From positions 1 to 43,026 of the forward strand of contig JAHWGX010000063.1 in assembly GCA_019323655.1 (NCBI GenBank): DNA of 43,026 bases, in the 5' to 3' direction. The notes beneath the pieces were generated by a model. It was not told the DNA's origin. It worked only from the letters and a program-made list of their open reading frames with translations, and did not search any database. This stretch comes from Candidatus Woesearchaeota archaeon. Its GTDB lineage: Archaea; Nanobdellota; Nanobdellia; Woesearchaeales; GW2011-AR4. Of the stretch, positions 13,080 through 31,458 are shown one piece after another. How positions within the stretch are numbered: position 1 is the first letter of the stretch; each line of letters begins with the position of its first letter. The position numbers were made by a program, and so were the translations under genes.

Positions 13080-13595
13080 TTAGTTTCTTCTACTAAAACA
13101 ATCTTCTTTATATCCACACCTTTCACATTTATGTTTCTTAATAGGTTTTGGGCAGTCTCCTAAATTAGTGTAATGCCTCATTTCATGCATTGTTTTTATT
13201 AAAAATAATTTCATACTCTTAGTATAAGGAATGGAGAAAGGTTGTCCTCCCATGTATTGTATAAAACCATATTTTGGCTTTATGCCCTTTACTTCCTCAA
13301 TCAATAAGCAATAAGATATTAGTTGCATGACATGGGAAAAATAGGGTTGGCGGGGTCTTTTTGAATGTTTGATTTCTAGAGGTAATAGCCCATCTTTTGT
13401 GTGAAGAATAAAATCTGGTTTCCCTACTAATCCATATTTGTACGAAAATAACGCCTTTTCAGGTTTTTCTTTATGGTCTGAATAGATTGTTTTGCTTTTG
13501 TATATTGGTTTTGGGACTTTTGTTGATTTTAATAAAACAAATAAAAATAGTAAAATGATACTTGTAACTAATATCATTGCATCTATGATGTTCAT
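13080..13595 (-). CDS. Cas4/RecB-like PD-(D/E)xK nuclease, C-terminal part with N-terminal TM anchor
   Basis: It carries GKPDF (Asp), LEIKHSK (ExK), QLISY (QxxxY) and the C-terminal cysteines CPKPIKKHKCERCGYKEDC, as in the Cas4/DUF83 family. A hydrophobic helix precedes the nuclease core. The ATG at 13595 overlaps the upstream stop (ATGA); the track start at 13610 is also possible. Confidence 0.6.
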   Translation of the reverse strand: MNIIDAMILVTSIILLFLFVLLKSTKVPKPIYKSKTIYSDHKEKPEKALFSYKYGLVGKPDFILHTKDGLLPLEIKHSKRPRQPYFSHVMQLISYCLLIEEVKGIKPKYGFIQYMGGQPFSIPYTKSMKLFLIKTMHEMRHYTNLGDCPKPIKKHKCERCGYKEDCFSRRN

Positions 13596-13816
13596 AATAA
13601 AAACCTGCATACAACAAGAGTTGTAAGAAGGGCAATACTAATTATAATACAAACATAAACAAATCTAGCTTTCGGCTGGTTTTCTGAAACAAGAGTATGG
13701 TGTCTTTTTCCTTCATTAATTACTTGTGTTATTTTAACACCTTTTGTTTTTCCAATCCACCAGCTAACAGGACAGAAAAGATAATTTGCTATCTCACTTG
13801 ATTTGATTGTTCTCAC
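13592..13816 (-). CDS. Cas4-like N-terminal fragment (first Fe-S cysteine helix) with C-terminal TM anchor
   Basis: SEIANYLFCPVSWWI resembles the Cas4 N-terminal Cys-containing helix. It ends in the hydrophobic segment FVYVCIIISIALLTTLVVC. The start is GTG, and the stop overlaps the downstream ATG. Confidence 0.5.
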   Translation of the reverse strand: MRTIKSSEIANYLFCPVSWWIGKTKGVKITQVINEGKRHHTLVSENQPKARFVYVCIIISIALLTTLVVCRFLL

Positions 13817-13998
13817 AGTGAAAGGAAGTAGATTGATTATTAATATTTTGTCTATTATTTGGCTCGCGACTCTAAATAAAGAATATCCATATACACTATT
13901 TATATGCCCTTAATTACAGAGGAACGCCATCCGCAGTATAAGAAACTCCTCTGATGCGGTTCTCAAACATGTTATTTCCTTCAATTTGAAGTACCATG

Positions 13999-14970
13999 TT
14001 ACTTTAAAGATATTTCTTTTTTCTTAACAAATTCCCTCACTTTCTCTGCAACATGCTCTGCACTTAAACCATACTTGTCGTACAGCTCAGCAGGCTTTCC
14101 TGATTCAGCATATTTATCTTCGAGACCAATTCTTTTGAGAATGCAGGGATAATTTTCCGAAAGAACTTCTGCGACAGCGCTTCCAAGCCCTCCGATTATA
14201 TTATGGTCTTCTGCTGTTATGACGCAATTTGTTTTCTTTGCCAAATCTATTACAAGCTCCTTGTCAATCGGCTTTATTGTAGGGGTATTAACAACACAAA
14301 CATCTATTTTTTCTTTATTCAGCAATTCTGATGCTTTTAATGCCTCGTGAACCATGCTGCCTGTGGCAAAAATAACCGCATCTTTTCCTTTTTTCAGAAT
14401 TTCCCCTTTGCCAATTTCAAACCTATAATTTTTATCATGGATTATCGGTATAGGGTTCCTTAGCAGCCTAATGTAAGCCGGCCCGTTGTAATCCATCAAA
14501 GCTATTGTTGCTTTTTCTGCCTCTACTGAATCCGCTGGCTGTATGACAACAAAATTGGGCAAGGTTCTGTAAATAGAGATGTCTTCTATTGCCTGCGCGC
14601 TCTTTCCGTCCTCTCCGGTAAATATGCCGGCGTGGCTTCCGGCTATTTTTACATTTATCCTGTTTCTGGAAATAATATTTCTTGTTAATTCAAAAGCCCT
14701 TTCGGTAAAAATTGCAAAGCTGCTTGCATAAGGTATTTTCCCGCACAACGCAAGGCCGGCAGCTGTGGCGATCATATCCTGCTCTGCAATGCCCATGCTG
14801 AAAAATCTTTCCGGAAACTCTTTTTTGAACAGCTCGCTTCTTGTACTGTCGCTAAGGTCTGCATCCAAAGCTACAACATTCCTATTTTTCCTGCCTGCAG
14901 CTACAAGCCCTGCCCCATAGCCGTCTCTTGTCGCAGCTTTCTCCTTCTTTTCTTCTGCAATAACCGCCAT
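13999..14970 (-). CDS. Transketolase, C-terminal (pyrimidine-binding) subunit
   Basis: TRDGYG..L......N..VV.LDADL..ST plus FFSMGIAEQDM are transketolase Pyr and C-terminal domains. It is split-gene type; a TTG alternative start lies at 14979. Confidence 0.9.
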   Translation of the reverse strand: MAVIAEEKKEKAATRDGYGAGLVAAGRKNRNVVALDADLSDSTRSELFKKEFPERFFSMGIAEQDMIATAAGLALCGKIPYASSFAIFTERAFELTRNIISRNRINVKIAGSHAGIFTGEDGKSAQAIEDISIYRTLPNFVVIQPADSVEAEKATIALMDYNGPAYIRLLRNPIPIIHDKNYRFEIGKGEILKKGKDAVIFATGSMVHEALKASELLNKEKIDVCVVNTPTIKPIDKELVIDLAKKTNCVITAEDHNIIGGLGSAVAEVLSENYPCILKRIGLEDKYAESGKPAELYDKYGLSAEHVAEKVREFVKKKEISLK

Positions 14971-14971
14971 T

Positions 14972-15796
14972 TTAGTCAAATTTTTTTAATTCTTCCATAG
15001 CACGCTGAAATTCTTCATCGGTTGGAGCTTTTCCGTGGAACTTGTGGTTCAGCTCCATAAATGAAACTCCTTTGCCTTTTAGCGTATTAGCTATGATCAT
15101 CGTTGGTTTTCCTTTTAGCTGCCCTGCTTTGTCCAGGGCATTGACAATCTGCTCCATATCATGACCATTAATCTCAATCACATTAAAACCAAAAGCTTTC
15201 CATTTTTCTGCCACATCGCCTAAGTCCATAACCTCTTTTACATTTCCTGTTTGCTGCAATTGGTTTTTGTCCAGTATGTAAACTAAGTTATCTAAATTAT
15301 AAAAAGCTGCTGCCATTGAGGCTTCCCAAACCACGCCTTCCTGGCTTTCCCCGTCTCCTATTAAAACATAGACTCTGTAATCTTTTTTGTCCAGCTTTCC
15401 TGCAAGCGCCATTCCATTTGCAACAGGAACGCCCTGACCTAAAGAGCCTCCTGCATAGTCTACTCCGGGAGTTTTAAGCTCGGGATGCCCCTGCAGCAAG
15501 CCGTTTAGTTTCCTGTAGCTCTCCAGCTGTTTTTTATCAAAAAAACCTTTCATCGCAAGAGCTGCGTAATAAGCTGGAGATGCGTGTCCTTTGCTTAAGA
15601 CAAACCGGTCTCTGTCTTGCCAATCTGGCTTTTTTGGATCCAGCCTTAATTTATAGAAATACAGGGCAGCTAAAATTTCCGCTTCTGACAAGGAACCGCC
15701 TGGATGGCCTGATTGAGCGCGGTGAATCATTATTAATGATTCTTTCCTTATTTCATTTGCTGTTTTTTTCAAATCCCTGATTTGTTCTTTGTCCAT
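14972..15796 (-). CDS. Transketolase, N-terminal (TPP-binding) subunit
   Basis: GHPGGSLS, RDRFVLSKGHA and the GDGESQEG TPP-binding motifs are present in a 274-aa split form. Confidence 0.9.
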   Translation of the reverse strand: MDKEQIRDLKKTANEIRKESLIMIHRAQSGHPGGSLSEAEILAALYFYKLRLDPKKPDWQDRDRFVLSKGHASPAYYAALAMKGFFDKKQLESYRKLNGLLQGHPELKTPGVDYAGGSLGQGVPVANGMALAGKLDKKDYRVYVLIGDGESQEGVVWEASMAAAFYNLDNLVYILDKNQLQQTGNVKEVMDLGDVAEKWKAFGFNVIEINGHDMEQIVNALDKAGQLKGKPTMIIANTLKGKGVSFMELNHKFHGKAPTDEEFQRAMEELKKFD

Positions 15797-20079: not shown

Positions 20080-21273
20080 TTGAGAAAATCGCAAGGAGGC
20101 GTTAATGCAGCAATTTTAGTTGCTGTTATAGCTGGCTTGATTATTTTATACATACTGTTTCTTCCGGAAGCTGAAAGAAAGGCGCTGCTTGAAAACGAAA
20201 GCGTTGAAGATAAGAATGGCGGTGCTGATGGTGAAGAGGAGGATATATTGCTAAGGGTATTCCCAGGAAGGCTTGACACAGTTGAGGGAATGATAGACAA
20301 AACAATCCCCAATATATTCCTGTTCGAGAAAACTGACGCTGAAGTTCTTGAAAAAATAAACCCTTTTATAGTAAGGAACGGATGGTTTGATGAAAAGAGC
20401 AGGACTGTTGACTTCAGCATAGATGATTTGGAGAATACTGATAATGTTATTCTGTCTTTTAAAGCTAAAAGCCATGAGGGCATTTTGACAATAAAGCTGA
20501 ATGGCGCGATTGTGTTTGAAAATGAGATTGCGTCAGAAAATGCTGAGCCGATAAGATTGGGCAGAAATCTGCTTAAAGATTACAACACTTTTGATTTCAG
20601 CGTTTCTTCTGTCGGGATTAGATTTTGGAAAACAAATGAGTACAGCCTTGAGGATATAAGGGTAATAGGCGATATAACTGACAGGAGCAAGCAGGAAAGC
20701 AGGAACGTCTTTACTTTGACTGCAACAGAGCTGTTTAATATTGAGGAAGCCGACCTGAAATTTGTCCCTTACTGCGGGAATGTGGCCAGTGTTGGAGTCC
20801 TGGATGTTTCTATTAATAATAGGGATGTATATTCGGCTGTCCCTGTTTGCGAGGACCCGACTAAAGTTCCAATACCCTTAGGAATCTTGGATGAGGGGGA
20901 AAACAGGGTGATTTTCAAAACCAACAAAGGCAGCTACAGTGTGGAGCAGATTAAAGTGGAGTTTAATGAGAAAGAAACAAAGGCTGATGTTTATTTTTTT
21001 GAGGTGAATGAAAGCGTAATAGAGGGCATAGAGGACGAGGAAATAGATATTGTTTTGACAATAGAATTTGTTGATGGCGAAAGCAACAAAAGGGCTGACT
21101 TAAACATCAATGACCGGCTGTCTTCAATAGACCAGGAAAAAAGAATTTTCACAAAAACCCTTAATGATGATGACGATCCTGATTATATAGAAGAAGGTAA
21201 TAATTTTATTGAAATAAGGCCTAGAACTAGGCTTGATATTGTTGAGCTGAAAGTAGCAATAGAAGATCGGTAG
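20080..21273 (+). CDS. Uncharacterised N-terminally membrane-anchored, acidic surface protein with three ~100-aa tandem repeats
   Basis: TTG start with a GGTGA RBS. The N-terminus MRKSQGGVNAAILVAVIAGLIILYILFL is a signal anchor. Repeat ends are visible as EYSLEDIRVIGD / SYSVEQIKVEFN / RLDIVELKVAIE. I recognise no family. Confidence 0.6.
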   Translation: MRKSQGGVNAAILVAVIAGLIILYILFLPEAERKALLENESVEDKNGGADGEEEDILLRVFPGRLDTVEGMIDKTIPNIFLFEKTDAEVLEKINPFIVRNGWFDEKSRTVDFSIDDLENTDNVILSFKAKSHEGILTIKLNGAIVFENEIASENAEPIRLGRNLLKDYNTFDFSVSSVGIRFWKTNEYSLEDIRVIGDITDRSKQESRNVFTLTATELFNIEEADLKFVPYCGNVASVGVLDVSINNRDVYSAVPVCEDPTKVPIPLGILDEGENRVIFKTNKGSYSVEQIKVEFNEKETKADVYFFEVNESVIEGIEDEEIDIVLTIEFVDGESNKRADLNINDRLSSIDQEKRIFTKTLNDDDDPDYIEEGNNFIEIRPRTRLDIVELKVAIEDR

Positions 21274-21323
21274 ATAAAGAGGTGGTTTTGGAAAGAATTC
21301 TAAAGTTTTAGTTAGGCAAGAAA

Positions 21324-23810
21324 ATGGCGATTAGAGAGACGTTAGGGCAGGGTTATGAGAAAGTTAGAGATAAAGCGACAGATGGCTACAAAATTCTAAG
21401 GGAAAAAACAGAAAGGATCCCAAAAAAAGCGTACGGCATGGCTGCTGCAGCAGGCGGGGGCCTGATGGTTGGGCTGGCAAGCGCCAAAGACAGAGCCAAA
21501 GAAACTGCAGCCAATGTAAGCGGCGACACTGGCAGCTTATTTGTGATTATCCTTTTTATTATGTACATAGTAGACCTAGCCGATTTTGGAGGGGGCAGGT
21601 ATACTGGTTTTGTTTTTCAGTTGCCTGCGTTTTCATCGACCTATGCATGGAATGTCCTTACTTCTGTGATTTTCGGATTTTTTGTGCTCATATATTTTTT
21701 AGACAAGATAGTAAGAAATGAGTGGGACTGGGTAAGCCGTGAGACTTTTAGTTTTTTTTTGTTTGCTTTTATTATGAGTTTCCTCCTAATTTTTAACCAG
21801 TGGTTTGCAAGCCCTAAAGCAATCTTTCATTTCATATTTATTGTGGTTTTTGGATTCACTTTTGTAAGAAGCTGCGACGGGCCTTTCAGCTCTTACCTTT
21901 ATATATCTACCTTCTTATTCTTAGATTTTTTTGGGTATGCTTACTTTCAGCAGATTGTCGCCTTTAAGTATGTGCCCTTTGCTTACTTATGGATTGCATT
22001 GTATATCTACAGAAAAACGCAAAATCTTCTTTCACTTATTGCAATAGTCTCTATTTTATTTATATTGTTCCTATTTGTTTACAAAGACGCTAATGAGATT
22101 AGCGGGGGGTATTTCTGGGTAAAAAGCACTGATGGCCTGACATTGGAAGAAACTATGGGTGATTTGCGCCAAGGAATAGGAAGCTTTATTGATGCGTGGC
22201 TTGGGACTCTGGAAAGGCAGATGCAATATGCAATTACCGGGAAGGTTGAGGAAAACAAATATGAGCCTCTGGGCGTTTATCTGGTAGAGCTACAGCCGTC
22301 GCAGCCTGTATATTTCCAGGATGAGAATGTGATTATATTAGGAACAGTAGAGGCAAGAACATTAAATGACCCTATCAAGATAGAGATGGGGTGCAGAATC
22401 AAGGGAAAGAAAAAGGAGGGAGATAAAGAGGCTGACGAAGTGGATACTGAGAAATTTTCCGTGTACACTTCTGAGCAACAGCCTTTTGCATGCAAATTCG
22501 ACAGGTGTTGCAAGCCTAACGAATGTACTAAAGAAGTACTTTCTAACTGCGTGTTAAAGGAGGGAACTAACACAATAATAGCTTATGCGGACTTTAATTT
22601 TGAAACTTTATCGTATCTAAAGACTTATTTTATGAGCCGGGAAAGAATAAGGGCAATGGTCAGGGAAAATATAGACCCATTTAATGAGTTTGGAATTACA
22701 GATAAAAATCCTATTGCTGTTTATACCAACGGCCCTGTTGAGATAGGGATGTCAGTAACAACTTCTTTAACTGGAGCGTCCTTGGTTGGCGTCAGCATAG
22801 CAGAAGGTGCAGAAGATGTATATGCCGGCTATCCTACTTTAAGCATTTCTTTAAGGAACAGAGAAGGCTGGGAGGGCAAGATAAAAAATATAAGCTCATT
22901 CTTGCTGTTTTTTCCGAAAGGCATTGAGCTGGAGAATCCTGAAGAAGACTGCTATGGCTGGGTATTTAAAAATGTTGAAGATTCTAAATATTCCAAAGCT
23001 TGCAAAGAAAAATTTTGCGGAAAGCTGCAGGAAGGAGAATGTTCAGAAGTATGCGACACTATCCAGGGGTATTATTTGGATGTAGAGAATAAGGAAGTCC
23101 AGAAAAAATTAGATGATTTTGAAAAATTCAGCTTTTTCAGGTGCAGGCTCAAGCCCAATAAGGATGCTTTAGAGGGCACTCCAATAACAACAAAAATCTT
23201 TGCAGTGGCTGCAGAATATAACTACACCTTGGAGAAATCCGTTGTTGCAAGTGTACAAAAGATTCCGGAAGAGGATATTGTGGAAGCCGGAGAGGGCATG
23301 GAAGGTGAATGCCCAAGCTACGCGTGCCTTGAATACGAAGGTGATTGGTGGTCGGTGACAGGCAATGTTGACAGTTCTTATGAGGGAGATAAATGGAAAG
23401 TCAATGAATGTTATTATAGTAAAAATGAATATTGTGAATCAAAAAATTGTGGAAAATCTGGTAAATGTATAGAAGAGGAAAGTGGGGAGGTTTGTGGAGA
23501 TGGAGTTTGTGGTTCTGGAGAAACTTGTGGTTTAATTGATATCGAAAAGTGTTCTCATACTTCATGTACCTCGCCAAAATGTTATTATGGCTGCCAAGAA
23601 ACCCCATTGCCAGCTGGGAGCACTAATGATGAATGCAAAGATGGTCGGGCTTGTGATGGAGAAGGCAATTGCATATCCCAAGAAAGAATCTGTATGGGAG
23701 AATGTAAAGAGGGATGTTATTGTGGGCCTAGTGTCTGTGAAGTGGCAAGACTCAACACTAACTGTGAGGAGTCTGGAAAAACTTGTTGCATTCCGAAAGA
23801 TAGAGAATAA
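21324..23810 (+). CDS. Uncharacterised polytopic membrane protein with large ectodomain and Cys-rich C-terminal tail
   Basis: 828 aa. Residues ~70-270 contain about 7 hydrophobic helices. The following ectodomain shares motifs with the next two genes. The last 166 aa contain 24 cysteines. Confidence 0.65.
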   Translation: MAIRETLGQGYEKVRDKATDGYKILREKTERIPKKAYGMAAAAGGGLMVGLASAKDRAKETAANVSGDTGSLFVIILFIMYIVDLADFGGGRYTGFVFQLPAFSSTYAWNVLTSVIFGFFVLIYFLDKIVRNEWDWVSRETFSFFLFAFIMSFLLIFNQWFASPKAIFHFIFIVVFGFTFVRSCDGPFSSYLYISTFLFLDFFGYAYFQQIVAFKYVPFAYLWIALYIYRKTQNLLSLIAIVSILFILFLFVYKDANEISGGYFWVKSTDGLTLEETMGDLRQGIGSFIDAWLGTLERQMQYAITGKVEENKYEPLGVYLVELQPSQPVYFQDENVIILGTVEARTLNDPIKIEMGCRIKGKKKEGDKEADEVDTEKFSVYTSEQQPFACKFDRCCKPNECTKEVLSNCVLKEGTNTIIAYADFNFETLSYLKTYFMSRERIRAMVRENIDPFNEFGITDKNPIAVYTNGPVEIGMSVTTSLTGASLVGVSIAEGAEDVYAGYPTLSISLRNREGWEGKIKNISSFLLFFPKGIELENPEEDCYGWVFKNVEDSKYSKACKEKFCGKLQEGECSEVCDTIQGYYLDVENKEVQKKLDDFEKFSFFRCRLKPNKDALEGTPITTKIFAVAAEYNYTLEKSVVASVQKIPEEDIVEAGEGMEGECPSYACLEYEGDWWSVTGNVDSSYEGDKWKVNECYYSKNEYCESKNCGKSGKCIEEESGEVCGDGVCGSGETCGLIDIEKCSHTSCTSPKCYYGCQETPLPAGSTNDECKDGRACDGEGNCISQERICMGECKEGCYCGPSVCEVARLNTNCEESGKTCCIPKDRE

Positions 23811-23813
23811 AAA

Positions 23814-24797
23814 ATGAACAAGAAAATAATTTTTGGCTTTATTGCAATAGGATTGTTTTTTATTGCGGGGTGCAATGTCAATGTTGGTGGCGGCAACAAC
23901 CCTAAAACAGATGCTGATGTAAAGAAAGGGACAGGAGGGCTTACAATGGAGTTTGTGAAAAATGCTCCGCCAATAAGTGTTTTTGAATATACTGTTTTTC
24001 CTATAGCGCTGAACTTAAAGAATGCAGGGGCGTTTGATATAGGCGATGAAATTGAAGGCACTAGTAAAAAAGGGAAGCTTGTTCTAGGGCTTGAAAAAAA
24101 TTATATGGATGTTGCGGAATTAGGAGAGGGAAAACAAGATTTCGAGATTAATGGCAAGTCCATTTATAACCTAAATGGGGATGAAGAGCTAATAACTATA
24201 AACGCAAAAGCAAAAAGCATCGGGGCGCAAAGCGAAACCCGTTCTGTGAATATCCTCGCGACTGCCTGCTATCCCTATAAGACTTTTTTCGGGAGCTCTG
24301 TATGCATTGACCCTGATGTTTACGGCATGAGGAGAGGGGCAAAAGCGTGCAGCATTGCGGATTTGGGATTTGACAAGGGGCAGGGAGCTCCTGTTGCAAT
24401 AACAAGAATAGAATCCAGAATGCTTATGGAAGCAGATAAAAATGTAATAAAGCCCAACTTCGTGATTTATATTGAGAATAGGGGAAACGGGGAGGTTATA
24501 AGCCTTAATAAGATAGATGATGCTTGTTCGCAAGAACCTTTGAGCTATGAGGACTTTAACACATTGATAATAAAAGCATCATTAGCCGGAAACAAGCTGA
24601 AATGCAATATCGTTGACGGAGCCCAGCAAACGACAATAAAGCTCAGAGGTAAAAAGGACAGGGTTATGTGCACTTTAGATGACGGCGTTGACATGAACCT
24701 TGATGCTTACACAGCACCGTTGGATATAGAGCTATCTTACGGCTATACTACCACCATATCCAAAAATATAATCATAGAGAGGCTTTTAACTTACTAA
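23814..24797 (+). CDS. Uncharacterised lipoprotein (paralog 1)
   Basis: MNKKIIFGFIAIGLFFIAGC has a lipobox (IAGC). It has two CARDB-like strands (LNLKNAGAFD, IYIENRGNGEV). The gene starts 3 nt after the upstream stop. Confidence 0.65.
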   Translation: MNKKIIFGFIAIGLFFIAGCNVNVGGGNNPKTDADVKKGTGGLTMEFVKNAPPISVFEYTVFPIALNLKNAGAFDIGDEIEGTSKKGKLVLGLEKNYMDVAELGEGKQDFEINGKSIYNLNGDEELITINAKAKSIGAQSETRSVNILATACYPYKTFFGSSVCIDPDVYGMRRGAKACSIADLGFDKGQGAPVAITRIESRMLMEADKNVIKPNFVIYIENRGNGEVISLNKIDDACSQEPLSYEDFNTLIIKASLAGNKLKCNIVDGAQQTTIKLRGKKDRVMCTLDDGVDMNLDAYTAPLDIELSYGYTTTISKNIIIERLLTY

Positions 24798-24810
24798 CCG
24801 GATTAAGAAA

Positions 24811-25806
24811 ATGAAAAAAATTAAAGTGAGTTTCGCGATTTTACTTGCCTTTTTGCTGATTTTTTCTGCTGCTGGGTGCATAAAAAAAACTGGCGGCAGT
24901 GTTGACTACAAGGCTGAAACAGATGGCCTGAAAATAAAATTTCTTGAAAGAACACTGAAAGACCGGTATGTAATAGGCGAAAGAGATATTTACCCCATGA
25001 TTGTAGAGCTGGAAGTGGAGAATAAAGGTGGGTTCCCAAAAAAAGAGGACTTGCGCAGCGGCAGCAGGTGGAGCAACTTAATGATGCCTCAGATTAAGCT
25101 TAGCGGATTTGACAAGAATATAATTACCGATGTGAAAACCAAAGACAGGTTAGTCTGGGATTCTCTTTTAGGAGTGGACTATTCAAACCCTGAGGGAAGC
25201 CTTGACACGATTTTATTTTCCGCGTGGATTCAAAGTAAAAAGATAACAGACAGCTATGAGCCGAATATAATGGCTACTATCTGCTATCCTTATGCGACAA
25301 AGGCAGAGCCGGAGGCTTGTATTGACCCGCGGCCATCCGAAGAGGATGAGCATAAAGTCTGCAGTATTGGAACTAAAACATTAACAAGCCAGGGTGCTCC
25401 TGTTGCAATAACAAAGATTGAGCAGGAAGCCTCTTCAGACAAAATGCAGTTTAAGATTCACATAAAGAACATAGGAAACGGGGAAGTGATAAAATTTGGA
25501 TCTTTATGGAAATGCAGCTCTCAGGAAGCGAGGCTGGAAAAAGATGATTTTGACAGGATAAACCTGGCAAGCGTGGAAATTGGCTACGATAAGCCTGTAA
25601 AGCTTGACTGCAAGCCTTTTGCCGACGGGAGTAATAACTTAATAAGGCTCTATGAAGGGGAAGGTGTAATAATATGCTCCTTTGACATGTCTGACTCAGA
25701 TGTTAAATATGAATATACAACGCCGCTCAAAATTGTTCTGGAATACGGCTACAGCACCACAATTTCGAAAAATATAAAAATATTAAAGATGGTTGAGGTT
25801 GATTAA
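24811..25806 (+). CDS. Uncharacterised lipoprotein (paralog 2)
   Basis: MKKIKVSFAILLAFLLIFSAAGC has a lipobox (AAGC). It is collinear with the previous gene: ATICYPYATKAEPEACIDP, QGAPVAITKIEQE, YGYSTTISKNIKI. Confidence 0.65.
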   Translation: MKKIKVSFAILLAFLLIFSAAGCIKKTGGSVDYKAETDGLKIKFLERTLKDRYVIGERDIYPMIVELEVENKGGFPKKEDLRSGSRWSNLMMPQIKLSGFDKNIITDVKTKDRLVWDSLLGVDYSNPEGSLDTILFSAWIQSKKITDSYEPNIMATICYPYATKAEPEACIDPRPSEEDEHKVCSIGTKTLTSQGAPVAITKIEQEASSDKMQFKIHIKNIGNGEVIKFGSLWKCSSQEARLEKDDFDRINLASVEIGYDKPVKLDCKPFADGSNNLIRLYEGEGVIICSFDMSDSDVKYEYTTPLKIVLEYGYSTTISKNIKILKMVEVD

Positions 25807-25846
25807 GAATAATTTTTATATAAAAAACAAATAAAAGGTGGCAAAA

Positions 25847-26722
25847 ATGGGAAAAAAACAGGCTTTTGGTTGGTTGGCTGTAGTAATGATGTTTGTTTTG
25901 GCTGCAGGTTTTGTTAGTGCTCTGTGTCCTGATTACGATTGTCAATTTCAGAAAAGTGGTGTTTTCTCGTATTCCAAGTATGACAGTTCTTACCCCCACA
26001 ATTTTACTGACCCAGTGAGGGCAGGCACTTGTATTAGAGCACAATACAACTACTGGAAACTTTGCGGATACGAGGAGGAAACATGTGATAGAACTACCGG
26101 GAAATGTGTGGAAGAGGATGACAGCAACGGGGGAAGCACAACCTGCCCAGATAGATGCTATGGTCCAGATAGGTGGGGCAATAACTTTGTAGTGTCCATG
26201 AATAAACTGCCCTCTGGCAACGATTGTTCAGTCCCCTTTGAGGGTTGCACCTATACTAACTGTCTTAAGTGCGAATCGGCAGAATGTGCAAATGCCAAAT
26301 GTGCAGAAGGAAGGGGCAGCACTGGCGGGGACACGGGTGATGAGGGTGTAGGTCTAAGCGCAACTTTAGGATCATTTTCTACGCCTAAATCCTACAGGAG
26401 CGCCGGGGAAACAGCAGAATTGAGCGTTAATGTGCGAAATACCGGAAATGCTGCATTTGATGAAACTACAAAAGTATGGTTCTTTGTTAAGAAGCCGGGC
26501 AGCACAGATTATGAAGCTGTTTCAAGCAAATCTGTCAGCGGTCTTATGTACACTGGACAGGCAAGCATTAAGGATGTTTATTATTACTGGCAGATTCCAA
26601 AAGATGCTGTAGGGGGCAAGTATGAATTCGTTGCCCAGGTATTTGCAGTTAAAAAAAATGGTGAATACTATCCCCTTAGTAACACTCCCGCATTGACTAT
26701 TAATGTTGAGGGAAGTGACTGA
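25847..26722 (+). CDS. Uncharacterised secreted Cys-rich protein with C-terminal CARDB/Ig-like domain
   Basis: The ATG at 25847 is preceded by AAGGTGG. It has a signal peptide (...LAAGFVSA), 14 Cys in the first ~130 mature residues, and a C-terminal LSVNVRNTGNAAFD... beta-sandwich-like region. Confidence 0.6.
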   Translation: MGKKQAFGWLAVVMMFVLAAGFVSALCPDYDCQFQKSGVFSYSKYDSSYPHNFTDPVRAGTCIRAQYNYWKLCGYEEETCDRTTGKCVEEDDSNGGSTTCPDRCYGPDRWGNNFVVSMNKLPSGNDCSVPFEGCTYTNCLKCESAECANAKCAEGRGSTGGDTGDEGVGLSATLGSFSTPKSYRSAGETAELSVNVRNTGNAAFDETTKVWFFVKKPGSTDYEAVSSKSVSGLMYTGQASIKDVYYYWQIPKDAVGGKYEFVAQVFAVKKNGEYYPLSNTPALTINVEGSD

Positions 26723-26736
26723 GTATTGGCTTAGGA

Positions 26737-28130
26737 CAGACATCCCGAAAGTAGCTAATTTTATTAATTCTCAAATCCAGAGACAGTAATAAGGAGTTGA
26801 TTTTGGCATTATATCAATTTGAAATCTCTTAATTTCTCATTTATTGCTTGTGGTGGCAACTCCTTAAAAAATTAAGGAGGGGATTACCACCACAAACAAA
26901 CAAATCGACAAAAGTACTCAAGAGTTTGCCCATAAAAATATTTCTATTGCCCCTAACGTAGTATTTAGCATTCCTATGATTTTGCTTGTTTTAGTGTGTG
27001 CAGCCCAAGAGGGGCATAGTGTCAATGCAACAGCATCAGCACCTGATGCTGACAGTGTCTTTTACAGAATTGACACGTCAATTCGAAAAATGCAAGACCA
27101 GTTTTGGGGCCAGACTTTAAAACTTCTACGTCGGAAAAAGAAGAAGCTAGCTAAAGTGAAATGCTACATAACAGTAGACGAAACTTATGATTCATACACT
27201 GGAAACCTCCATAAAAAGCCAGTTAGAGAATTAACAAGAGAGCAAAAAACAATAAGGCAGTATATTCATGAATACCAGCCAAAGAAAGGAGATACTGGTT
27301 CTTTCAAGTATTTGGTTTTTGCTCTTGTGTACGGCAGGAAGAAAATGGTTCTCCGTGCTAAAGCTTTAAGAAGAAAAGAAGAGTACTGGTCGCTTGTAGT
27401 TAGAACACTTAAAGAATTATCATCAGAGCTGAAGTTTGAATGCGCCCTTATGGATAGGGGATTCTATGTTGCAGAGCTTATAGATCAGCTACAAAAGGAA
27501 AGTATTCCTTTTGTTGTCCGCGCATGCATTTGCGATTACATGAAAATAATCCTCGGCATTTATCGGGAATGGAAAATTTATGAGTATGATGTTGCAGGCT
27601 GGGCTAAAACAAAACTTATTCTTGGAAGGGATTTCAGAGGTTATCCGTGGGGATTTGTTACAAACCTTTCATTTAACCATCTAGAAGATATACGTTTCTT
27701 ATACAAGAAACGATGGAATATCGAGAATATTTTCAAAGCTACAGATGGGATACAGCTGAAAGTTGCAACATCTAACCACATCACAAGAATGTTTGCAGTT
27801 TGCTTGTCTTTTTTGATCTATAACGCATGGCAAAATAAGAATATGAAACCAACTCTGCTTGACTTTATAAAGAAAATTTTTCAGGTTCTGTTTGCATTTA
27901 TAAGGAAAATCAGTCCTTACAGAGATAAGTTCAAACTCAACTTGCCTTTATGGGATTTTTTGGAGAAATGAAGTAGAAGGCAGAATAAATTTTTTCATGT
28001 TACATGCGCTTTAATTTAATTCGCGATTGAGGTTAGGGGTATATTCTTCTCTAATGCGATTTCAATTCTTAGTGAGCAGATAAAATCTGCTCAAATTTGT
28101 GTTAGGGTTTGGTCAATTTCGGAATCTCTG
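26737..28130. mobile_element. Candidate IS element (DDE transposase flanked by imperfect terminal inverted repeats)
   Basis: CAGACATCCCGAAAGT (26737-26752) matches the reverse complement of 28115-28130 (CAGAGATTCCGAAATT) at 13/16 positions, and the pair brackets the transposase ORF. I found no target-site duplication, so the boundaries are tentative. Confidence 0.3.
26976..27971 (+). CDS. IS4/IS5-superfamily DDE transposase
   Basis: A DDE triad is visible: ITVDETY, ALMDRGFY, YKKRWNIENIFK (Y-x2-R-x3-E signature). The N-terminal DNA-binding region looks short. The frame is open upstream to 26868 without a canonical start. Confidence 0.75.
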   Translation: MILLVLVCAAQEGHSVNATASAPDADSVFYRIDTSIRKMQDQFWGQTLKLLRRKKKKLAKVKCYITVDETYDSYTGNLHKKPVRELTREQKTIRQYIHEYQPKKGDTGSFKYLVFALVYGRKKMVLRAKALRRKEEYWSLVVRTLKELSSELKFECALMDRGFYVAELIDQLQKESIPFVVRACICDYMKIILGIYREWKIYEYDVAGWAKTKLILGRDFRGYPWGFVTNLSFNHLEDIRFLYKKRWNIENIFKATDGIQLKVATSNHITRMFAVCLSFLIYNAWQNKNMKPTLLDFIKKIFQVLFAFIRKISPYRDKFKLNLPLWDFLEK

Positions 28131-28155
28131 AATACAAGCAATTTACCTTCGTTCT

Positions 28156-28692
28156 ATGCCTCAACACAGAATGAACAGACAATTAATTGCTCAGAGGGTA
28201 AGAAAACCATTAGAGAGTCTTGTTAGTGATCTGGAAAAGATATATACACATGCCGTAAAGGAAGGGCTATATCACAGTCTGAGTCCACATGAAATTTATC
28301 AAAATATTGGCAAAGGCCTCATTAACTACCATCTTTCTGAGGAATATGGATTCTTCTCTGATTTGAGAGAAGACTTTGGGCGTCTGGGTTGGAGTGTTGC
28401 GTATTTAACAGAGCGGTATAAAGATGGCGGACTCGCTCTTGAAGAGCTTGCATGGTTAGGTTTGAAGAGGACAGAATACTTATGGGAAAACCAAAAAGAT
28501 CCAAACAGCGAATTGCCAGAAAAAGACATTCTTGAGATTTCGGACAATCTTAAATCTAAACCCCCAATTAAAGATTGTAATGAAAATGAATTAAGGATTT
28601 TATTGGATAGTTATTTGGGGGGTAAAGCAGATTACCTTACATATAAATATCCGTATGGAACCAGGGAGACCTTAACAAAAGCATTAATATAA
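28156..28692 (+). CDS. Hypothetical protein (no recognisable family)
   Basis: 178-aa ORF beginning 25 nt after the candidate IS end. The composition is non-repetitive and I recognise no motifs. Confidence 0.45.
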   Translation: MPQHRMNRQLIAQRVRKPLESLVSDLEKIYTHAVKEGLYHSLSPHEIYQNIGKGLINYHLSEEYGFFSDLREDFGRLGWSVAYLTERYKDGGLALEELAWLGLKRTEYLWENQKDPNSELPEKDILEISDNLKSKPPIKDCNENELRILLDSYLGGKADYLTYKYPYGTRETLTKALI

Positions 28693-30399: not shown

Positions 30400-31458
30400 T
30401 CATTCCCAAACACCAGCTATTTTCTCACTGCATTTCCTGCATTTTCCTTTTTCAAGGTTTTTTATGGTTGTATAATAGCCGCTTCTTTTTATAAGCAGAG
30501 CATTGCATTTAGGGCAGTAAGTGTTTGAATGCTCCTCATCAAGAATATTTCCAACATAGGCATATTTTAAACCTGCTTTCTTTCCAATATTGTAGGCTTT
30601 AATCAAGGTTTTGTAAGATGTGGGGGGAACGTCTGACATTTTATAAGTGGGGGAGAATGCTGTTACATGCCACGGAATATTTTCGTCAATGCCTGCTATA
30701 AACTCCGCTATTTTTTTCAGCTCTGAATCAGAGTCGTTTTTTGTCGGGATTACCAAAGTGGTAATCTCAACCCAGATTCCAAGCTCATAGGCTAATTTTA
30801 TTGTTTCCAAGACCGGCTGCAGGCTTGCTTTGCATATTTTTTTGTAGAATTCATCGCTAAAGGACTTTAAGTCAATGTTCACTGCATTAAGGCAGGGTTT
30901 AATTAGCCTTAAGGCTTCTTCTGTTTCGTAGCCATTAGTGACAAAAACATTTTTTATTCCTTTTTTATGGGCAAGCTTTGCAGTGTCGTAGGCATACTCA
31001 AAAAATATGGTTGGCTCGTTATAGGTATAAGCAATGCTAGATATATTTTTTTCTGCGCATATTTCCACAATTTTTTCCGGCAGCAGCTCATAGCCCATGC
31101 TGCTTACTTCAGCATCCATTCGCTCTATTTTTTTCTCTTTCAGCAGCTTTTTGCGCAGCTCTTTTGTAATCTGGGAAATATCCCAGTTCTGGCAGAAATC
31201 ACATGAGAAATTGCAGCCAACAGTGCCTAAGGAAAATATTTCTGTTCCGGGCATGAAATGGAACAGGGGCTTTTTTTCAATCGGGTCTATGTTAAAGGAA
31301 ATTGCTTTTCCGTAAACCAGCAGGTATAGCTTTCCATTTTTGTTCTGCCTTACCCCGCAGATGCCTGTGTTATCTGGAGCTATAATGCATTTCTGGCTGC
31401 ATGCTGTGCAGGCAACTTTTTTGTTTTCAAGCTTTTTGTATAGAATTGCTTCGTGCAT
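30400..31458 (-). CDS. AmmeMemoRadiSam-system-type radical SAM enzyme (PflA-like activase family)
   Basis: CNFSCDFCQNWDISQ is a radical SAM CxxxCxxC. It also has an N-terminal Cys cluster (CTACSQKC...ICGVRQN) and a C-terminal CPKC...CRKC ribbon. Confidence 0.85.
   Translation of the reverse strand: MHEAILYKKLENKKVACTACSQKCIIAPDNTGICGVRQNKNGKLYLLVYGKAISFNIDPIEKKPLFHFMPGTEIFSLGTVGCNFSCDFCQNWDISQITKELRKKLLKEKKIERMDAEVSSMGYELLPEKIVEICAEKNISSIAYTYNEPTIFFEYAYDTAKLAHKKGIKNVFVTNGYETEEALRLIKPCLNAVNIDLKSFSDEFYKKICKASLQPVLETIKLAYELGIWVEITTLVIPTKNDSDSELKKIAEFIAGIDENIPWHVTAFSPTYKMSDVPPTSYKTLIKAYNIGKKAGLKYAYVGNILDEEHSNTYCPKCNALLIKRSGYYTTIKNLEKGKCRKCSEKIAGVWE

What the first reader, a model, noticed from the sequence alone, without database searches (positions are those of the whole stretch)
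13080..13816. Cas4-like nuclease split into two translationally coupled, membrane-anchored halves; no CRISPR-Cas nearby
The upstream 74-aa ORF carries the Cas4 N-terminal cysteine helix (NYLFCPVSWW) and ends in a TM helix. Its TGA overlaps an ATG (TTATGAAC, 13592-13595) that opens the second ORF. The second ORF begins with a TM helix and then has the PD-(D/E)xK core (GKPD, LEIK, QLISY) and the three C-terminal cluster cysteines (C-x8-C-x2-C-x5-C). The Cas4 4Fe-4S cluster needs the N-terminal Cys plus the C-terminal ones, so both halves would have to reassemble. The positive-inside rule (QPKAR before TM1, KSTKVPKPIYKSK after TM2) puts both soluble parts in the cytoplasm. A membrane-tethered, split, standalone Cas4-family nuclease is unusual. 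It could act on incoming DNA at the membrane; that is inference.
Basis: partly seen in the sequence, partly recalled or inferred. Interest (0 to 1): 0.7.

Follow-up and report, generated by a model that had tools for sequence, protein, structure and literature searches.

The report
Split, membrane-anchored solo Cas4 nuclease
Two small overlapping genes in this archaeal genome together encode one Cas4-type DNA nuclease. It is cut in two inside a membrane-spanning hairpin, and the same layout is conserved in many archaea and bacteria, so it is a real but undescribed variant of a known enzyme, not a sequencing error.

Summary
On the minus strand, a 74-aa ORF (13816..13592) and a 171-aa ORF (13595..13080) overlap in ATGA. 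ORF2 passes the curated Cas4 cut-offs. ORF1 matches the first ~45 positions of Cas4 profiles, so together they cover the whole family profile. Each carries one strongly hydrophobic helix next to the split point.

The split is not an artefact. Of 80 species-representative genomes with a relative, 46 have the two halves adjacent in different frames, 10 have gene(s) between them, and 4 (Thermoplasmata) have one fused gene with 2 or 8 membrane helices. ATGA is kept in the close Woesearchaeota relatives. A search of 1.84 billion protein cluster representatives (one per 50%-identity cluster) finds 459 stand-alone N-halves at E<=1e-10.

C15, G36 and H40 of ORF1 are invariant or nearly so, as are D61, E74, K76, Q91, Y95 and the CxxC of ORF2. 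An AlphaFold model of the joined halves (pLDDT 85.5) best matches Cas4 structures.

The window has no CRISPR array and no other cas gene, so this is a solo-Cas4. It is most likely an obligate two-chain nuclease on the cytoplasmic face of the membrane. Its biological role is unknown. Gene neighbours hint weakly at DNA repair. I found no description of this architecture in the literature I searched.

The parts
13592..13816 (-). ORF1, the N-half gene: 74 aa, GTG start at 13816, TGA stop at 13594-13592. It encodes the Cas4 N-terminal segment plus membrane helix TM1.
   Evidence: Searches give the ORF. A homologous small ORF lies directly upstream of the C-half in relatives. It is called as a 74-aa gene in public records L081, L083 and L084. 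The family has 459 cluster representatives at E<=1e-10, and the best 150 are all 65-146 aa.
13694..13804 (-). Cas4 N-terminal segment, ORF1 residues 5-41. It includes the Fe-S ligand Cys15 (13772-13774) and the G36-x3-H40 motif (His40 at 13697-13699).
   Evidence: It matches PADLOC Cas4 model PDLC01447 at positions 4-45 of 161, E=2.5e-4, and TIGR00372 at positions 2-40 of 180. The family profile aligns to Cas4 8d3l_I residues 11-57 and to Pcal_0546 residues 56-108, with the Cys and G..H in register. S7, C15, W19, G36 and H40 are invariant in 36 sequences from three phyla.
13598..13663 (-). TM1, ORF1 residues 52-73 (FVYVCIIISIALLTTLVVCRFL).
   Evidence: The 19-residue Kyte-Doolittle score is 2.75. 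A comparable segment is present in 50 of 51 N-halves. The mean K+R count is 2.29 in the 12 residues before it and 0.63 after it. The AlphaFold model makes one helix from residue 29 to residue 70.
13592..13595 (-). ATGA overlap: the ORF2 start codon ATG (13595-13593) overlaps the ORF1 stop codon TGA (13594-13592).
   Evidence: One search shows the sequence. The same ATGA junction occurs in L001-L006, L008-L010 and L013 (Woesearchaeota) and recurs in Chloroflexota L024, L027, L049, L056 and L077.
13080..13595 (-). ORF2, the C-half gene: 171 aa from the conserved ATG at 13595. It encodes membrane helix TM2 plus the Cas4 nuclease core. An in-frame ATG at 13610 is not conserved in relatives.
   Evidence: The protein search found 96 homologues, almost all 153-177 aa and starting at the same MN(I/T)(I/L)D.
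13530..13589 (-). TM2, ORF2 residues 3-22 (IIDAMILVTSIILLFLFVLL).
   Evidence: The Kyte-Doolittle score is 2.85. A comparable segment is present in 47 of 51 C-halves. The mean K+R count is 0.08 before it and 3.33 in the 12 residues after it. The model has a helix at residues 75-98 of the joined sequence.
13098..13481 (-). Cas4 / RecB-like PD-(D/E)xK nuclease core, ORF2 residues 39-166. Catalytic motifs: GKPD (D61), LEIK (E74, K76) and QLISY (Q91, Y95).
   Evidence: It matches PF01930 at profile positions 48-159 of 160 and TIGR00372 at 51-178 of 180. D61, E74, K76, Q91 and Y95 are invariant in 30 homologues. Model pLDDT is 94-98 over this region. The best Foldseek hits are Cas4 8d3l, Dna2 and the Cas4-Cas1 fusion 7mi4/7mi5.
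13098..13154 (-). C-terminal cysteine cluster: C148, C157, C160 and C166 (C-x8-C-x2-C-x5-C).
   Evidence: C157 is invariant and C160 nearly so. All Chloroflexota relatives carry exactly CxxCx5C. In the Woesearchaeota clade the last Cys and the extra upstream Cys largely substitute for each other.
13836..13849 (-). TATA-box-like element aaaatattaataat, 20-33 nt upstream of the ORF1 GTG. This is an inferred archaeal promoter that would give a leaderless or near-leaderless ORF1-ORF2 transcript.
   Evidence: The sequence is. Similar ttttaata elements lie about 30 nt upstream of ORF1 in L001, L002, L005 and L006. This is inference only; no transcript data exist.

Best explanation
The two genes encode the two chains of one Cas4-family nuclease that sits in the cytoplasmic membrane.

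How it probably arose (inferred). A soluble Cas4 acquired a transmembrane helical hairpin between its N-terminal helices and its RecB-like core. This unsplit state survives in Thermoplasmata. The gene was then cut in the short extracytoplasmic loop of the hairpin.

What each chain carries. Chain 1 (ORF1) has the first Fe-S cysteine (C15), the invariant G36-x3-H40 motif, and TM1. Chain 2 (ORF2) has TM2, the D61/E74/K76/Q91/Y95 catalytic motifs and the C-terminal CxxC...C.

Expression (inferred). ORF1 is probably translated from a leaderless mRNA. ORF2 would be translated by termination-reinitiation at ATGA, which would give about equal amounts of the two chains.

Assembly (inferred). Chain 1 inserts with its N-terminus in the cytoplasm and its C-terminus outside; chain 2 inserts the other way round. 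The two membrane helices pair, the N-terminal helices dock on the core, and one [4Fe-4S] cluster is ligated by one cysteine from chain 1 and three from chain 2. The His-bearing helix runs straight into TM1, so the active site is held against the inner face of the membrane.

Activity and role (inferred). By homology the enzyme is a metal-dependent nuclease for single-stranded DNA or DNA ends. It has no link to CRISPR. I think the most likely role is housekeeping DNA-end processing, that is repair or recombination of DNA close to the membrane. Degradation of entering foreign DNA is the main alternative.

Shown here: the homology, the conserved split, the hydrophobic helices, the charge bias and the invariant residues on both chains. 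Inferred: the order of events, assembly, the shared cluster, nuclease activity and the biological role.
For: Homology. ORF2 exceeds the curated Cas4 cut-offs. ORF1 matches the Cas4 N-terminus. The joint profile hits three solved Cas4 structures in two collinear pieces.

Conserved split. Of 80 species-representative loci, 46 are split and adjacent, 10 are split with gene(s) between, and 4 are fused. Junctions vary (ATGA, GTGA, TAAnATG, 5-15 nt spacers), which is not what one sequencing error would give. The N-half is called as a 74-aa gene in three public records of relatives (L081, L083, L084). The N-half family has at least 2477 hits in the 90%-identity protein database. It has 1286 cluster representatives at E<=1e-3 and 459 at E<=1e-10, and the best 150 are all 65-146 aa.

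Unsplit relatives. 973 hits to a fused query, the top 120 all 242-349 aa. These have 2 or 8 membrane helices between the halves, always an even number.

Both chains needed. C15, W19 and G36 (chain 1) and D61, E74, K76, Q91, Y95 and C157 (chain 2) are invariant in the joint alignment, and H40 is nearly so (>=90%) (H40 is invariant in the N-half-only alignments). Chloroflexota relatives always have exactly 1 + 3 cysteines.

Structure. The AlphaFold2 model of the joined window sequence has pLDDT 85.5 and pTM 0.77. Residues 1-20 score 92-96 and the core 94-98. The best Foldseek match is Cas4 8d3l_J, with TM-score 0.63 over 259 columns that span both halves.

Topology. Membrane helix scores are 2.75 and 2.85. 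Mean K+R counts are 2.29 and 3.33 on the sides facing the soluble domains, against 0.63 and 0.08 on the loop side.

Solo status. No CRISPR array and no other cas gene in 43 kb.

Role. The window and L082 share a housekeeping context of acetyl-CoA synthetase, TrmB and transketolase. In Anaerolineae the pair sits between SSB, DUF3467 and a translin-like gene on one side and NAD kinase and RecN on the other.
Against: - No experiment shows that the chains associate, bind a cluster or cut DNA.
- The model was built from a joined sequence with a mostly unpaired alignment, and I could not inspect inter-residue errors or Cys-Cys distances.
- Which histidine ligates the metal is not settled. SSO0001 uses His62, at the position of the G..H motif, but Pcal_0546 uses His146 (PMC12501428). 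The Pcal_0546 residue aligns with H88 of ORF2.
- 16 of 80 loci, mostly Chloroflexia, have no N-half within about 4 kb. The C-half may work alone there, or the partner may lie elsewhere.
- In the Woesearchaeota clade 12 of 90 C-halves have fewer than three C-terminal cysteines, so the cluster may be dispensable in some.
- dN/dS of ORF1 against close relatives is only 0.31-0.70.
- The repair-type neighbourhood is seen only in Anaerolineae and could be inherited synteny. The Woesearchaeota and Thermoplasmata contexts say nothing about function.
Confidence: 0.7

Rival explanations
1. It is a sequencing or assembly frameshift, or a recent pseudogene: an ordinary single Cas4 gene broken at the T5 run.
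For: A T5 homopolymer (13599-13603) lies 4 nt upstream of the junction. Raw reads were not available.
Against: The same two-frame arrangement, with the same ATGA, is present in 10 independent Woesearchaeota assemblies. Varied junctions occur in about 40 Chloroflexota and Methanotrichaceae genomes. There are 96 C-half homologues that start at the same Met and hundreds of stand-alone N-half clusters. Key residues are conserved in both frames.
Confidence: 0.02
2. Programmed -1 ribosomal frameshifting near the T5 run yields a single fused ~245-aa protein, at least in Woesearchaeota. The two ORFs would then be only a coding device.
For: ORF2 is in the -1 frame relative to ORF1. The T-rich stretch AGG TTT TTA is conserved just before the junction in the Woesearchaeota clade. 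Fused proteins with the same hairpin exist in Thermoplasmata.
Against: In the ORF1 frame the sequence AGG|TTT|TTA|TTA|TGA has no canonical X XXY YYZ slippery heptamer. The T-run is explained by the conserved R-F-L residues. ORF2 has its own conserved ATG and conserved N-terminal residues. In Chloroflexota the halves are separated by spacers, or by whole genes such as a YkuD L,D-transpeptidase, so two chains are clearly viable.
Confidence: 0.05
3. The C-half is a self-sufficient membrane-anchored nuclease. The 74-aa protein is a separate small membrane protein, for example a regulator or assembly factor, and not part of the catalytic fold.
For: The window's C-half has four cysteines of its own (C148, C157, C160, C166) and could in principle bind a cluster alone. 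It also has a histidine (H88) that aligns with the metal ligand His146 of Pcal_0546 (PMC12501428). 16 loci lack an adjacent N-half. ORF1 is only mildly constrained by dN/dS.
Against: ORF1 is homologous to the Cas4 N-terminus itself. C15, G36 and H40 are invariant across phyla. Most relatives have only three C-terminal cysteines and so need a fourth ligand. Fused relatives hold the same N-terminal segment in one chain. The model packs residues 1-20 at pLDDT 92-96, and Foldseek aligns both halves to Cas4.
Confidence: 0.08
4. The architecture is as in the best explanation, but the role is different. The enzyme would be a defence or DNA-entry nuclease that degrades phage, plasmid or imported DNA as its free end emerges at the inner face of the membrane. 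In DPANN archaea, which depend on a host, it might scavenge nucleotides.
For: Cas4-family enzymes act on DNA ends and some stand-alone relatives work in defence, for example ACE1 with Argonaute (PMC12094033). Membrane tethering places the active site where foreign DNA enters. The patchy distribution across distant phyla is consistent with horizontal transfer, which is typical of defence genes.
Against: None of the examined loci lies in a defence island or next to a channel or uptake gene. In Woesearchaeota the pair sits in syntenic housekeeping DNA. In Anaerolineae the neighbours are SSB, RecN and a translin-like gene.
Confidence: 0.25

Closest known systems
Solo-Cas4 of DPANN archaea and Chloroflexi (Hudaiberdiev et al. 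2017, PMC5704561)
   Same: It is a Cas4-family nuclease encoded away from any CRISPR-cas locus. That paper notes that most DPANN archaea encode solo-Cas4 and that Chloroflexi carry a monophyletic solo-Cas4. Those are the same lineages in which I find this family.
   Different: The main text of the paper never uses the words 'transmembrane' or 'split'. It states that all Cas4 proteins contain four conserved cysteines, and that short fragments and disrupted sequences were discarded. Here the fourth cysteine is on a separate 74-aa chain, and both chains carry a membrane helix.
Unsplit, membrane-inserted Cas4 of Thermoplasmata (database names 'CRISPR-associated exonuclease Cas4' and 'Dna2/Cas4 domain-containing protein'; L058, L035, L051, L069; P0217-P0336)
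   Same: The order of parts is the same: N-terminal Cys/His segment, membrane helices, then the RecB-like core with CxxCx5C. The core shares 38-39% identity.
   Different: These are single polypeptides of 242-349 aa with 2 helices, or about 560 aa with 8 helices. The window's version is cut between helix 1 and helix 2.
CRISPR-associated Cas4 (type I-C Cas4 in PDB 8D3L; SSO0001, PDB 4IC1; Pcal_0546, PDB 4R5Q)
   Same: The fold, the D...ExK and QxxxY motifs, and the 1 + 3 cysteine Fe-S module are shared.
   Different: Those enzymes are soluble single chains of about 200 aa and work with Cas1-Cas2 in spacer acquisition. This one has no cas partners, about 70 residues of membrane hairpin inserted at profile positions ~40-51, and two chains.
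Solo-Cas4 of Methanosarcina mazei (PMC12501428)
   Same: It is a stand-alone archaeal Cas4 with a [4Fe-4S] cluster and an unknown role.
   Different: It was purified as a soluble SUMO fusion, and the paper mentions no membrane or split. It is a single chain.
Fe-S 'iron staple' nuclease domains of Dna2 and AddB
   Same: They share the PD-(D/E)xK core, in which a cluster ties an N-terminal cysteine to three C-terminal ones. Dna2 is among the top sequence and structure hits.
   Different: Those are domains of large helicase-nucleases. They are soluble, and the staple lies within one chain.
Split protein genes of Nanoarchaeum and other DPANN archaea (PMC3491384)
   Same: This is a DPANN genome in which a protein that is normally one chain is encoded as two genes.
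   Different: The Nanoarchaeum halves are usually scattered in the genome and are taken as a sign of genome reduction. Here the halves are adjacent and overlapping, and the same split occurs in large Chloroflexota genomes.

Membership tests
Cas4 family (PF01930 / TIGR00372 / COG1468) | Profile score above the curated cut-off | tested here: met
   ORF2 scores 55.1 bits against PF01930 (cut-off 22.7) and 77.6 bits against TIGR00372 (cut-off 65). The joined sequence scores 85.6 bits. ORF1 alone is below the cut-off but matches Cas4 profile positions 2-45.
Cas4 family (PF01930 / TIGR00372 / COG1468) | RecB-like PD-(D/E)xK motifs (D, ExK) and the QxxxY motif | tested here: met
   GKPD (D61), LEIK (E74, K76) and QLISY (Q91, Y95) are present. 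They are invariant in 30 homologues.
Cas4 family (PF01930 / TIGR00372 / COG1468) | Fe-S module of four cysteines, one N-terminal and three C-terminal | tested here: met
   C15 is on ORF1, and C157, C160 and C166 (plus the extra C148) are on ORF2. C15 and C157 are invariant. The feature is met only across two polypeptides. Cluster binding itself was not tested.
Cas4 family (PF01930 / TIGR00372 / COG1468) | Cas4 / RecB-nuclease three-dimensional fold | tested here: met
   The AlphaFold2 model has pLDDT 85.5. The top Foldseek hits are Cas4 8d3l_J (E=1.9e-7, TM-score 0.63), Dna2 and the Cas4-Cas1 fusion 7mi4/7mi5. This is a predicted structure, not a solved one.
Cas4 family (PF01930 / TIGR00372 / COG1468) | A single soluble polypeptide of about 160-220 aa | tested here: not met
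   There are two ORFs in different frames, each with a membrane helix. The arrangement is conserved. This is the respect in which it is a variant.
Cas4 family (PF01930 / TIGR00372 / COG1468) | Metal-dependent DNA nuclease activity | not testable with these tools
   It requires purified protein.
CRISPR-associated Cas4 (adaptation module) | Encoded next to cas1/cas2 or a CRISPR array | tested here: not met
   The window has no repeat array. No Cas1, Cas2 or effector hit appears among the 39 window proteins scanned against PADLOC and Pfam, or in the eight neighbouring genes (five on one side, three on the other, plus two overlapping alternative reading frames) scanned separately. No related locus examined has cas genes either.
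Solo-Cas4 (sensu Hudaiberdiev et al. 2017) | A Cas4-family gene outside any cas locus and not in a recognisable mobile element | tested here: met
   The context is acetyl-CoA synthetase, TrmB, transketolase N and C, [pair], PheS, PheT. The window also carries ribosomal proteins and SecY.

The most novel reading that the evidence does not exclude
This would be a previously unrecognised class of membrane-embedded, obligately two-chain Fe-S nuclease, spread across DPANN archaea, Chloroflexota, Methanotrichaceae and (unsplit) Thermoplasmata. The [4Fe-4S] cluster bridges two separately inserted membrane proteins and so makes nuclease assembly depend on iron, redox state or membrane state. The enzyme would process DNA ends exactly where DNA meets the membrane, for example imported, injected or membrane-attached chromosomal DNA. 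That would be a DNA-processing step for which no enzyme is currently assigned in these lineages.
Probability: 0.2. Interest if true: 0.8.

Novelty: new variant of a known kind. Interest (0 to 1): 0.6.

Why it matters
Solo-Cas4 is one of the most widespread archaeal nucleases with no known function, and it is nearly universal in DPANN archaea. A large clade of it turns out to be membrane-anchored, and in most lineages examined it is split into two chains that must share the Fe-S cluster and probably the active site. This gives the first concrete clue to where these enzymes work, namely at the inner face of the membrane.

It also corrects database annotation. Thousands of 75-90-aa proteins, mostly unnamed or called 'hypothetical', are the missing first quarter of a Cas4. 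The C-halves annotated as 'Cas4' are incomplete on their own.

The family is a natural example of a protein split inside a transmembrane hairpin, with fused and split forms both available for comparison. Finally, it warns that counting 'four conserved cysteines per Cas4 protein', or discarding short fragments, will miss this clade.

Tried and rejected
- AlphaFold2 on the joined sequence without an alignment gave a useless model (pLDDT 53).
I replaced it with a block alignment of permitted fused, N-half and C-half proteins.
- The first protein search, with the joined query, returned only C-halves. It did not list ORF1 or any N-half. A separate profile search was needed.
- tblastn with the single ORF1 sequence missed the N-half in 26 loci. 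A profile HMM recovered 6 of them.
- My first 'fused' classification was wrong because it counted ATGA overlaps as fusions. I corrected it with a frame test.
- dN/dS for ORF1 (0.31-0.70) is only weakly informative.
- Pfam has no family for ORF1.
- I did not use the sigma-70 promoter scan because the organism is an archaeon.
- Six literature searches and targeted reads of the two main solo-Cas4 papers found no mention of a transmembrane or split Cas4. This is absence in the searchable library only.
- Rejected readings: a sequencing frameshift, a pseudogene, a CRISPR adaptation role, and an extracellular nuclease. The last is rejected because of the Fe-S domain, the charge bias, and the absence of any recognised signal peptide (the only N-terminal hydrophobic segment reads as a signal-anchor helix; no signal-peptide predictor was run).
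Full report
**What is in the sequence**

On the minus strand there are two ORFs. ORF1 runs 13816..13592. It is 74 aa with a GTG start, and reads MRTIKSSEIANYLFCPVSWWIGKTKGVKITQVINEGKRHHTLVSENQPKARFVYVCIIISIALLTTLVVCRFLL. ORF2 runs 13595..13080 and is 171 aa. It reads MNIIDAMILVTSIILLFLFVLLKSTKVP...GKPD...LEIK...QLISY...C-x8-C-x2-C-x5-C.

The ORF1 stop (TGA) and the ORF2 start (ATG) share the four bases ATGA at 13595-13592. Two details differ. The T5 run is at 13599-13603, and the cysteine pattern holds four cysteines, not three.

**Homology**

ORF2 scores 55.1 bits on Pfam Cas_Cas4 (cut-off 22.7) and 77.6 bits on TIGR00372 cas4 (cut-off 65, E=1e-21). It covers profile positions 51-178 of 180.

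ORF1 alone is weak on those models: TIGR00372 positions 2-40, E=0.076. It matches PADLOC Cas4 model PDLC01447 at positions 4-45 of 161 with E=2.5e-4. Relatives of ORF1 match the same positions at 1e-5 and 3e-7. ORF2 matches positions 34-159 of that model. Together the two ORFs therefore tile one Cas4 profile. About 70 residues are inserted at profile positions ~40-51, and these are the two hydrophobic helices.

A profile of the joined halves hits three solved Cas4 proteins in two collinear pieces: 8d3l, 4r5q and 7mi4. The FC...W and G..xH motifs of ORF1 are in register with SGLQHFQFCKRQW...EGQHLH of 8d3l and FEYCPRLLW...RGRILH of Pcal_0546.

**Is the split real?**

The protein search found 96 homologues of ORF2, from Woesearchaeota and Nanoarchaeota assemblies. 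Almost all are 153-177 aa, and those aligned begin with a short Met-led tail running straight into the membrane helix, MN(I/T)(I/L)D in the close Woesearchaeota relatives.

A scan of one genome per species returned 80 loci. I classified them with tblastn and a profile HMM of ORF1:

| Arrangement | Loci | Lineages |
|---|---|---|
| N-half directly upstream, in another frame | 46 | 13 DPANN, 30 Chloroflexota, 2 Methanotrichaceae, 1 unclassified archaeon |
| N-half upstream with one or more genes between | 10 | 9 Chloroflexota, 1 DPANN |
| One fused reading frame | 4 | Thermoplasmata |
| No N-half within about 4 kb | 16 | mostly Chloroflexia |
| Contig ends too close to tell | 4 | 3 Chloroflexota, 1 DPANN |

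The junction is ATGA in the window and in L001-L006, L008-L010 and L013. It recurs in five Chloroflexota loci. Elsewhere it is GTGA, TAAnATG or a 5-15 nt spacer. Public gene calls list the 74-aa gene independently.

A profile search with the N-half found at least 2477 proteins, and the best 120 are all 73-88 aa. An exhaustive search of 1.84 billion cluster representatives found 1286 at E<=1e-3 and 459 at E<=1e-10. The best 150 are all 65-146 aa, with the match ending at the C-terminus. A sequencing frameshift or a recent pseudogene is excluded.

**Unsplit relatives**

A fused Thermoplasmata protein used as query found 973 proteins, and the top 120 are all 242-349 aa. The fused forms carry two membrane helices (L058) or eight (L035, L069; a four-fold repeat of the hairpin) between the N-terminal segment and the core. 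The number is always even, as it must be if both soluble parts stay on the same side. The split forms are cut exactly between helix 1 and helix 2. The likely order of events is therefore: soluble Cas4, then insertion of a hairpin, then fission in the outer loop. This order is an inference. I did not build a rooted tree, so the number of fission events is open.

**Membrane helices and topology**

The best 19-residue Kyte-Doolittle windows score 2.75 (ORF1 residues 52-70) and 2.85 (ORF2 residues 3-21). The rest of ORF2 peaks at 0.88. A comparable segment is present in 50 of 51 N-halves and 47 of 51 C-halves.

The mean K+R count is 2.29 in the 12 residues before TM1 and 0.63 after it. It is 0.08 before TM2 and 3.33 in the 12 residues after it. 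By the positive-inside rule, both soluble parts are cytoplasmic. That also fits cytoplasmic Fe-S assembly.

**Residues on both chains**

S7, C15, W19, G36 and H40 of ORF1 are invariant in 36 N-halves from three phyla. They are invariant again in 50 database N-halves. In the joint alignment, C15, W19, G36, D135, E148, K150, Q165, Y169 and C231 are invariant, and H40 and C234 nearly so. In ORF2 numbering these are D61, E74, K76, Q91, Y95, C157 and C160.

All Chloroflexota relatives have exactly one N-terminal cysteine plus CxxCx5C. This is the canonical Cas4 ligand set, divided 1 + 3 between the chains.

SSO0001 binds Mn2+ through His62, Asp99, Glu113 and a backbone carbonyl. Pcal_0546 uses His146 instead (PMC12501428). 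By motif position, H40 of ORF1 corresponds to SSO0001 His62. H88 of ORF2 (FSHVMQL) aligns with Pcal_0546 His146. Whether the active site, as well as the cluster, is shared between chains is therefore likely but not settled.

**Structure**

The joined window sequence gave an AlphaFold2 model with mean pLDDT 85.5 and pTM 0.77. I used a block alignment of 45 fused, 44 C-half and 49 N-half database proteins. Residues 1-20 score 92-96 and the core 94-98. Helix 29-70 runs without a break from the G..H motif into TM1, and helix 75-98 is TM2.

Foldseek against the PDB ranks type I-C Cas4 first (8d3l_J: E=1.9e-7, target TM-score 0.63, 259 aligned columns spanning both halves). Next come Dna2, the Cas4-Cas1 fusion, MGME1, Pcal_0546, RecE and ACE1. 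I could not inspect predicted errors or atomic distances.

**Context**

The window is archaeal chromosome with 38.9% G+C. It carries ribosomal proteins, SecY, ribonucleotide reductase, an XPD-type helicase, Ogg and endonuclease V. The local gene order, all on the minus strand, is acetyl-CoA synthetase, TrmB, transketolase N, transketolase C, ORF1, ORF2, PheS, PheT. Part of this order is shared with relative L082.

There is no CRISPR-like repeat array and no other cas gene. By definition this is a solo-Cas4.

A TATA-like element lies 20-33 nt upstream of the ORF1 GTG, with similar elements in relatives. This suggests a leaderless bicistronic mRNA. ORF2 would then depend on reinitiation at ATGA. 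That is inference.

**Clues to function**

I clustered the neighbours in the 80 loci and scanned them against Pfam. In Anaerolineae this shows a recurrent, co-directional order:

- SSB (10 loci)
- DUF3467 (11 loci)
- a translin-like gene immediately upstream (25 loci; its Pfam score is just below the cut-off)
- the N-half and C-half
- NAD kinase (12 loci)
- RecN (11 loci)

In six Chloroflexota loci a YkuD L,D-transpeptidase-type gene lies between the halves (Pfam-confirmed for the L059 protein; assigned to the others by similarity and the HGC(I/V)R motif, and L075 appears truncated). In L087 two other genes do. Woesearchaeota and Thermoplasmata contexts are uninformative. No locus lies in a defence island.

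I therefore rank housekeeping DNA-end processing at the membrane first, and attack on entering foreign DNA second. Both are held with low confidence.

**Comparison with what is known**

Hudaiberdiev et al. 2017 report that most DPANN archaea encode solo-Cas4 and that Chloroflexi carry a monophyletic solo-Cas4. Their text never mentions 'transmembrane' or 'split'. It states that all Cas4 have four conserved cysteines, and that short or disrupted sequences were discarded. The M. mazei solo-Cas4 study purified a soluble single chain and mentions no membrane. Six full-text searches found no description of a membrane-inserted or two-gene Cas4.

Where the databases give a name, the C-half is called 'Cas4'; the N-half is called 'hypothetical protein' or, in some JGI records, 'Cas4 (RecB family)'.

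The family membership is clear. The architecture is a new variant: a membrane hairpin, a two-chain enzyme and a shared cluster.

**Verdict**

The artefact explanation is excluded. The biological role is unknown. Interest is 0.6. This is a widespread, conserved and apparently undescribed variant of a well-known nuclease, and it makes the long-open question of what solo-Cas4 does more testable. It is not a new kind of system.

Noticed in passing
window 13098-13154 (-); proteins P0001-P0091: In the Woesearchaeota clade the third C-terminal Fe-S cysteine seems to swap position. Of 90 C-halves, 39 have CxxC plus the terminal Cys only. 29 have CxxC plus an extra Cys 8 residues upstream (G-x-C-P) only. 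10 have both, including the window, 8 have neither, and 4 lack CxxC. All Chloroflexota relatives keep the canonical CxxCx5C. The counts are not corrected for phylogeny.
   Followed up: partly
L018-L080 (Anaerolineae loci), e.g. L040 3104-3751, L045 4512-7658, L072 2656-3078: The gene order around the split Cas4 is conserved and co-directional: SSB, DUF3467, a translin-like gene (25 loci, immediately upstream; Pfam Translin E=2.8e-5, just below the cut-off), N-half, C-half, NAD kinase, a zinc-ribbon membrane protein, RecN. This may reflect a DNA-repair role, or only inherited synteny.
   Followed up: partly
L021, L037, L055, L059, L074, L075 (between the two halves); L087 6393-7512: In six Chloroflexota genomes a 250-280-aa L,D-transpeptidase-type gene with an N-terminal membrane helix sits between the N-half and the C-half on the same strand; Pfam YkuD was confirmed only for the L059 protein (E=7e-15), the others rest on similarity and the HGC(I/V)R motif, and the L075 copy looks truncated. 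In L087 two other genes with no Pfam hit on record lie between them. The halves therefore tolerate separation but stay in one apparent operon.
   Followed up: partly
L035 626-2317, L051 2747-4426, L069 79-1809, L058 3599-4495: The fused Thermoplasmata versions carry either 2 membrane helices or 8 between the Cas4 N-terminal segment and the core. The 8 look like a four-fold tandem repeat of the hairpin.
   Followed up: partly
L025, L029, L030, L032, L034, L041, L042, L044, L047, L048, L054, L060, L063, L070, L073, L076: Sixteen loci, mostly Chloroflexia, have a C-half with its membrane helix and CxxCx5C but no detectable N-half within about 4 kb. Seven loci of this Chloroflexia group (five of these sixteen, plus L034 and contig-end L062) have an M48 peptidase gene upstream instead. 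The partner may lie elsewhere in the genome or may have been lost.
   Followed up: no
window 20080-28689 (+): Seven consecutive same-strand ORFs (397, 828, 327, 331, 294, 331 and 178 aa) have no Pfam match at E<=1e-5. This is an unannotated block in an otherwise housekeeping region.
   Followed up: no
window 30400-31455 (-) and 38157-40079 (+): One window protein gives a weak match to PADLOC viperin-like models (best E=1.9e-10), most likely the radical SAM protein at 30400-31455; another matches the PADLOC 'type IV DinG' model (E=1.5e-111), most likely the XPD/Rad3-type helicase at 38157-40079. PADLOC reported these per family, not per protein, so the assignment is inferred from the Pfam domains. 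Both are most likely housekeeping genes, not defence genes.
   Followed up: no
window 13999-15796 (-): Transketolase is encoded as separate N-terminal (14972-15796) and C-terminal (13999-14979) genes that overlap by 8 nt. Relative L082 also encodes separate N- and C-terminal transketolase genes, there about 350 nt apart. From my own knowledge this split is common in archaea. It lies directly upstream of the Cas4 pair.
   Followed up: no
ORF2 residue D40 (window 13476-13478, -): An Asp in a Y-x-D motif between TM2 and the Cas4 core is invariant in 30 C-halves, with Y38 nearly so. It lies outside the canonical Cas4 catalytic motifs (D...ExK, QxxxY), and its role is unknown.
   Followed up: no
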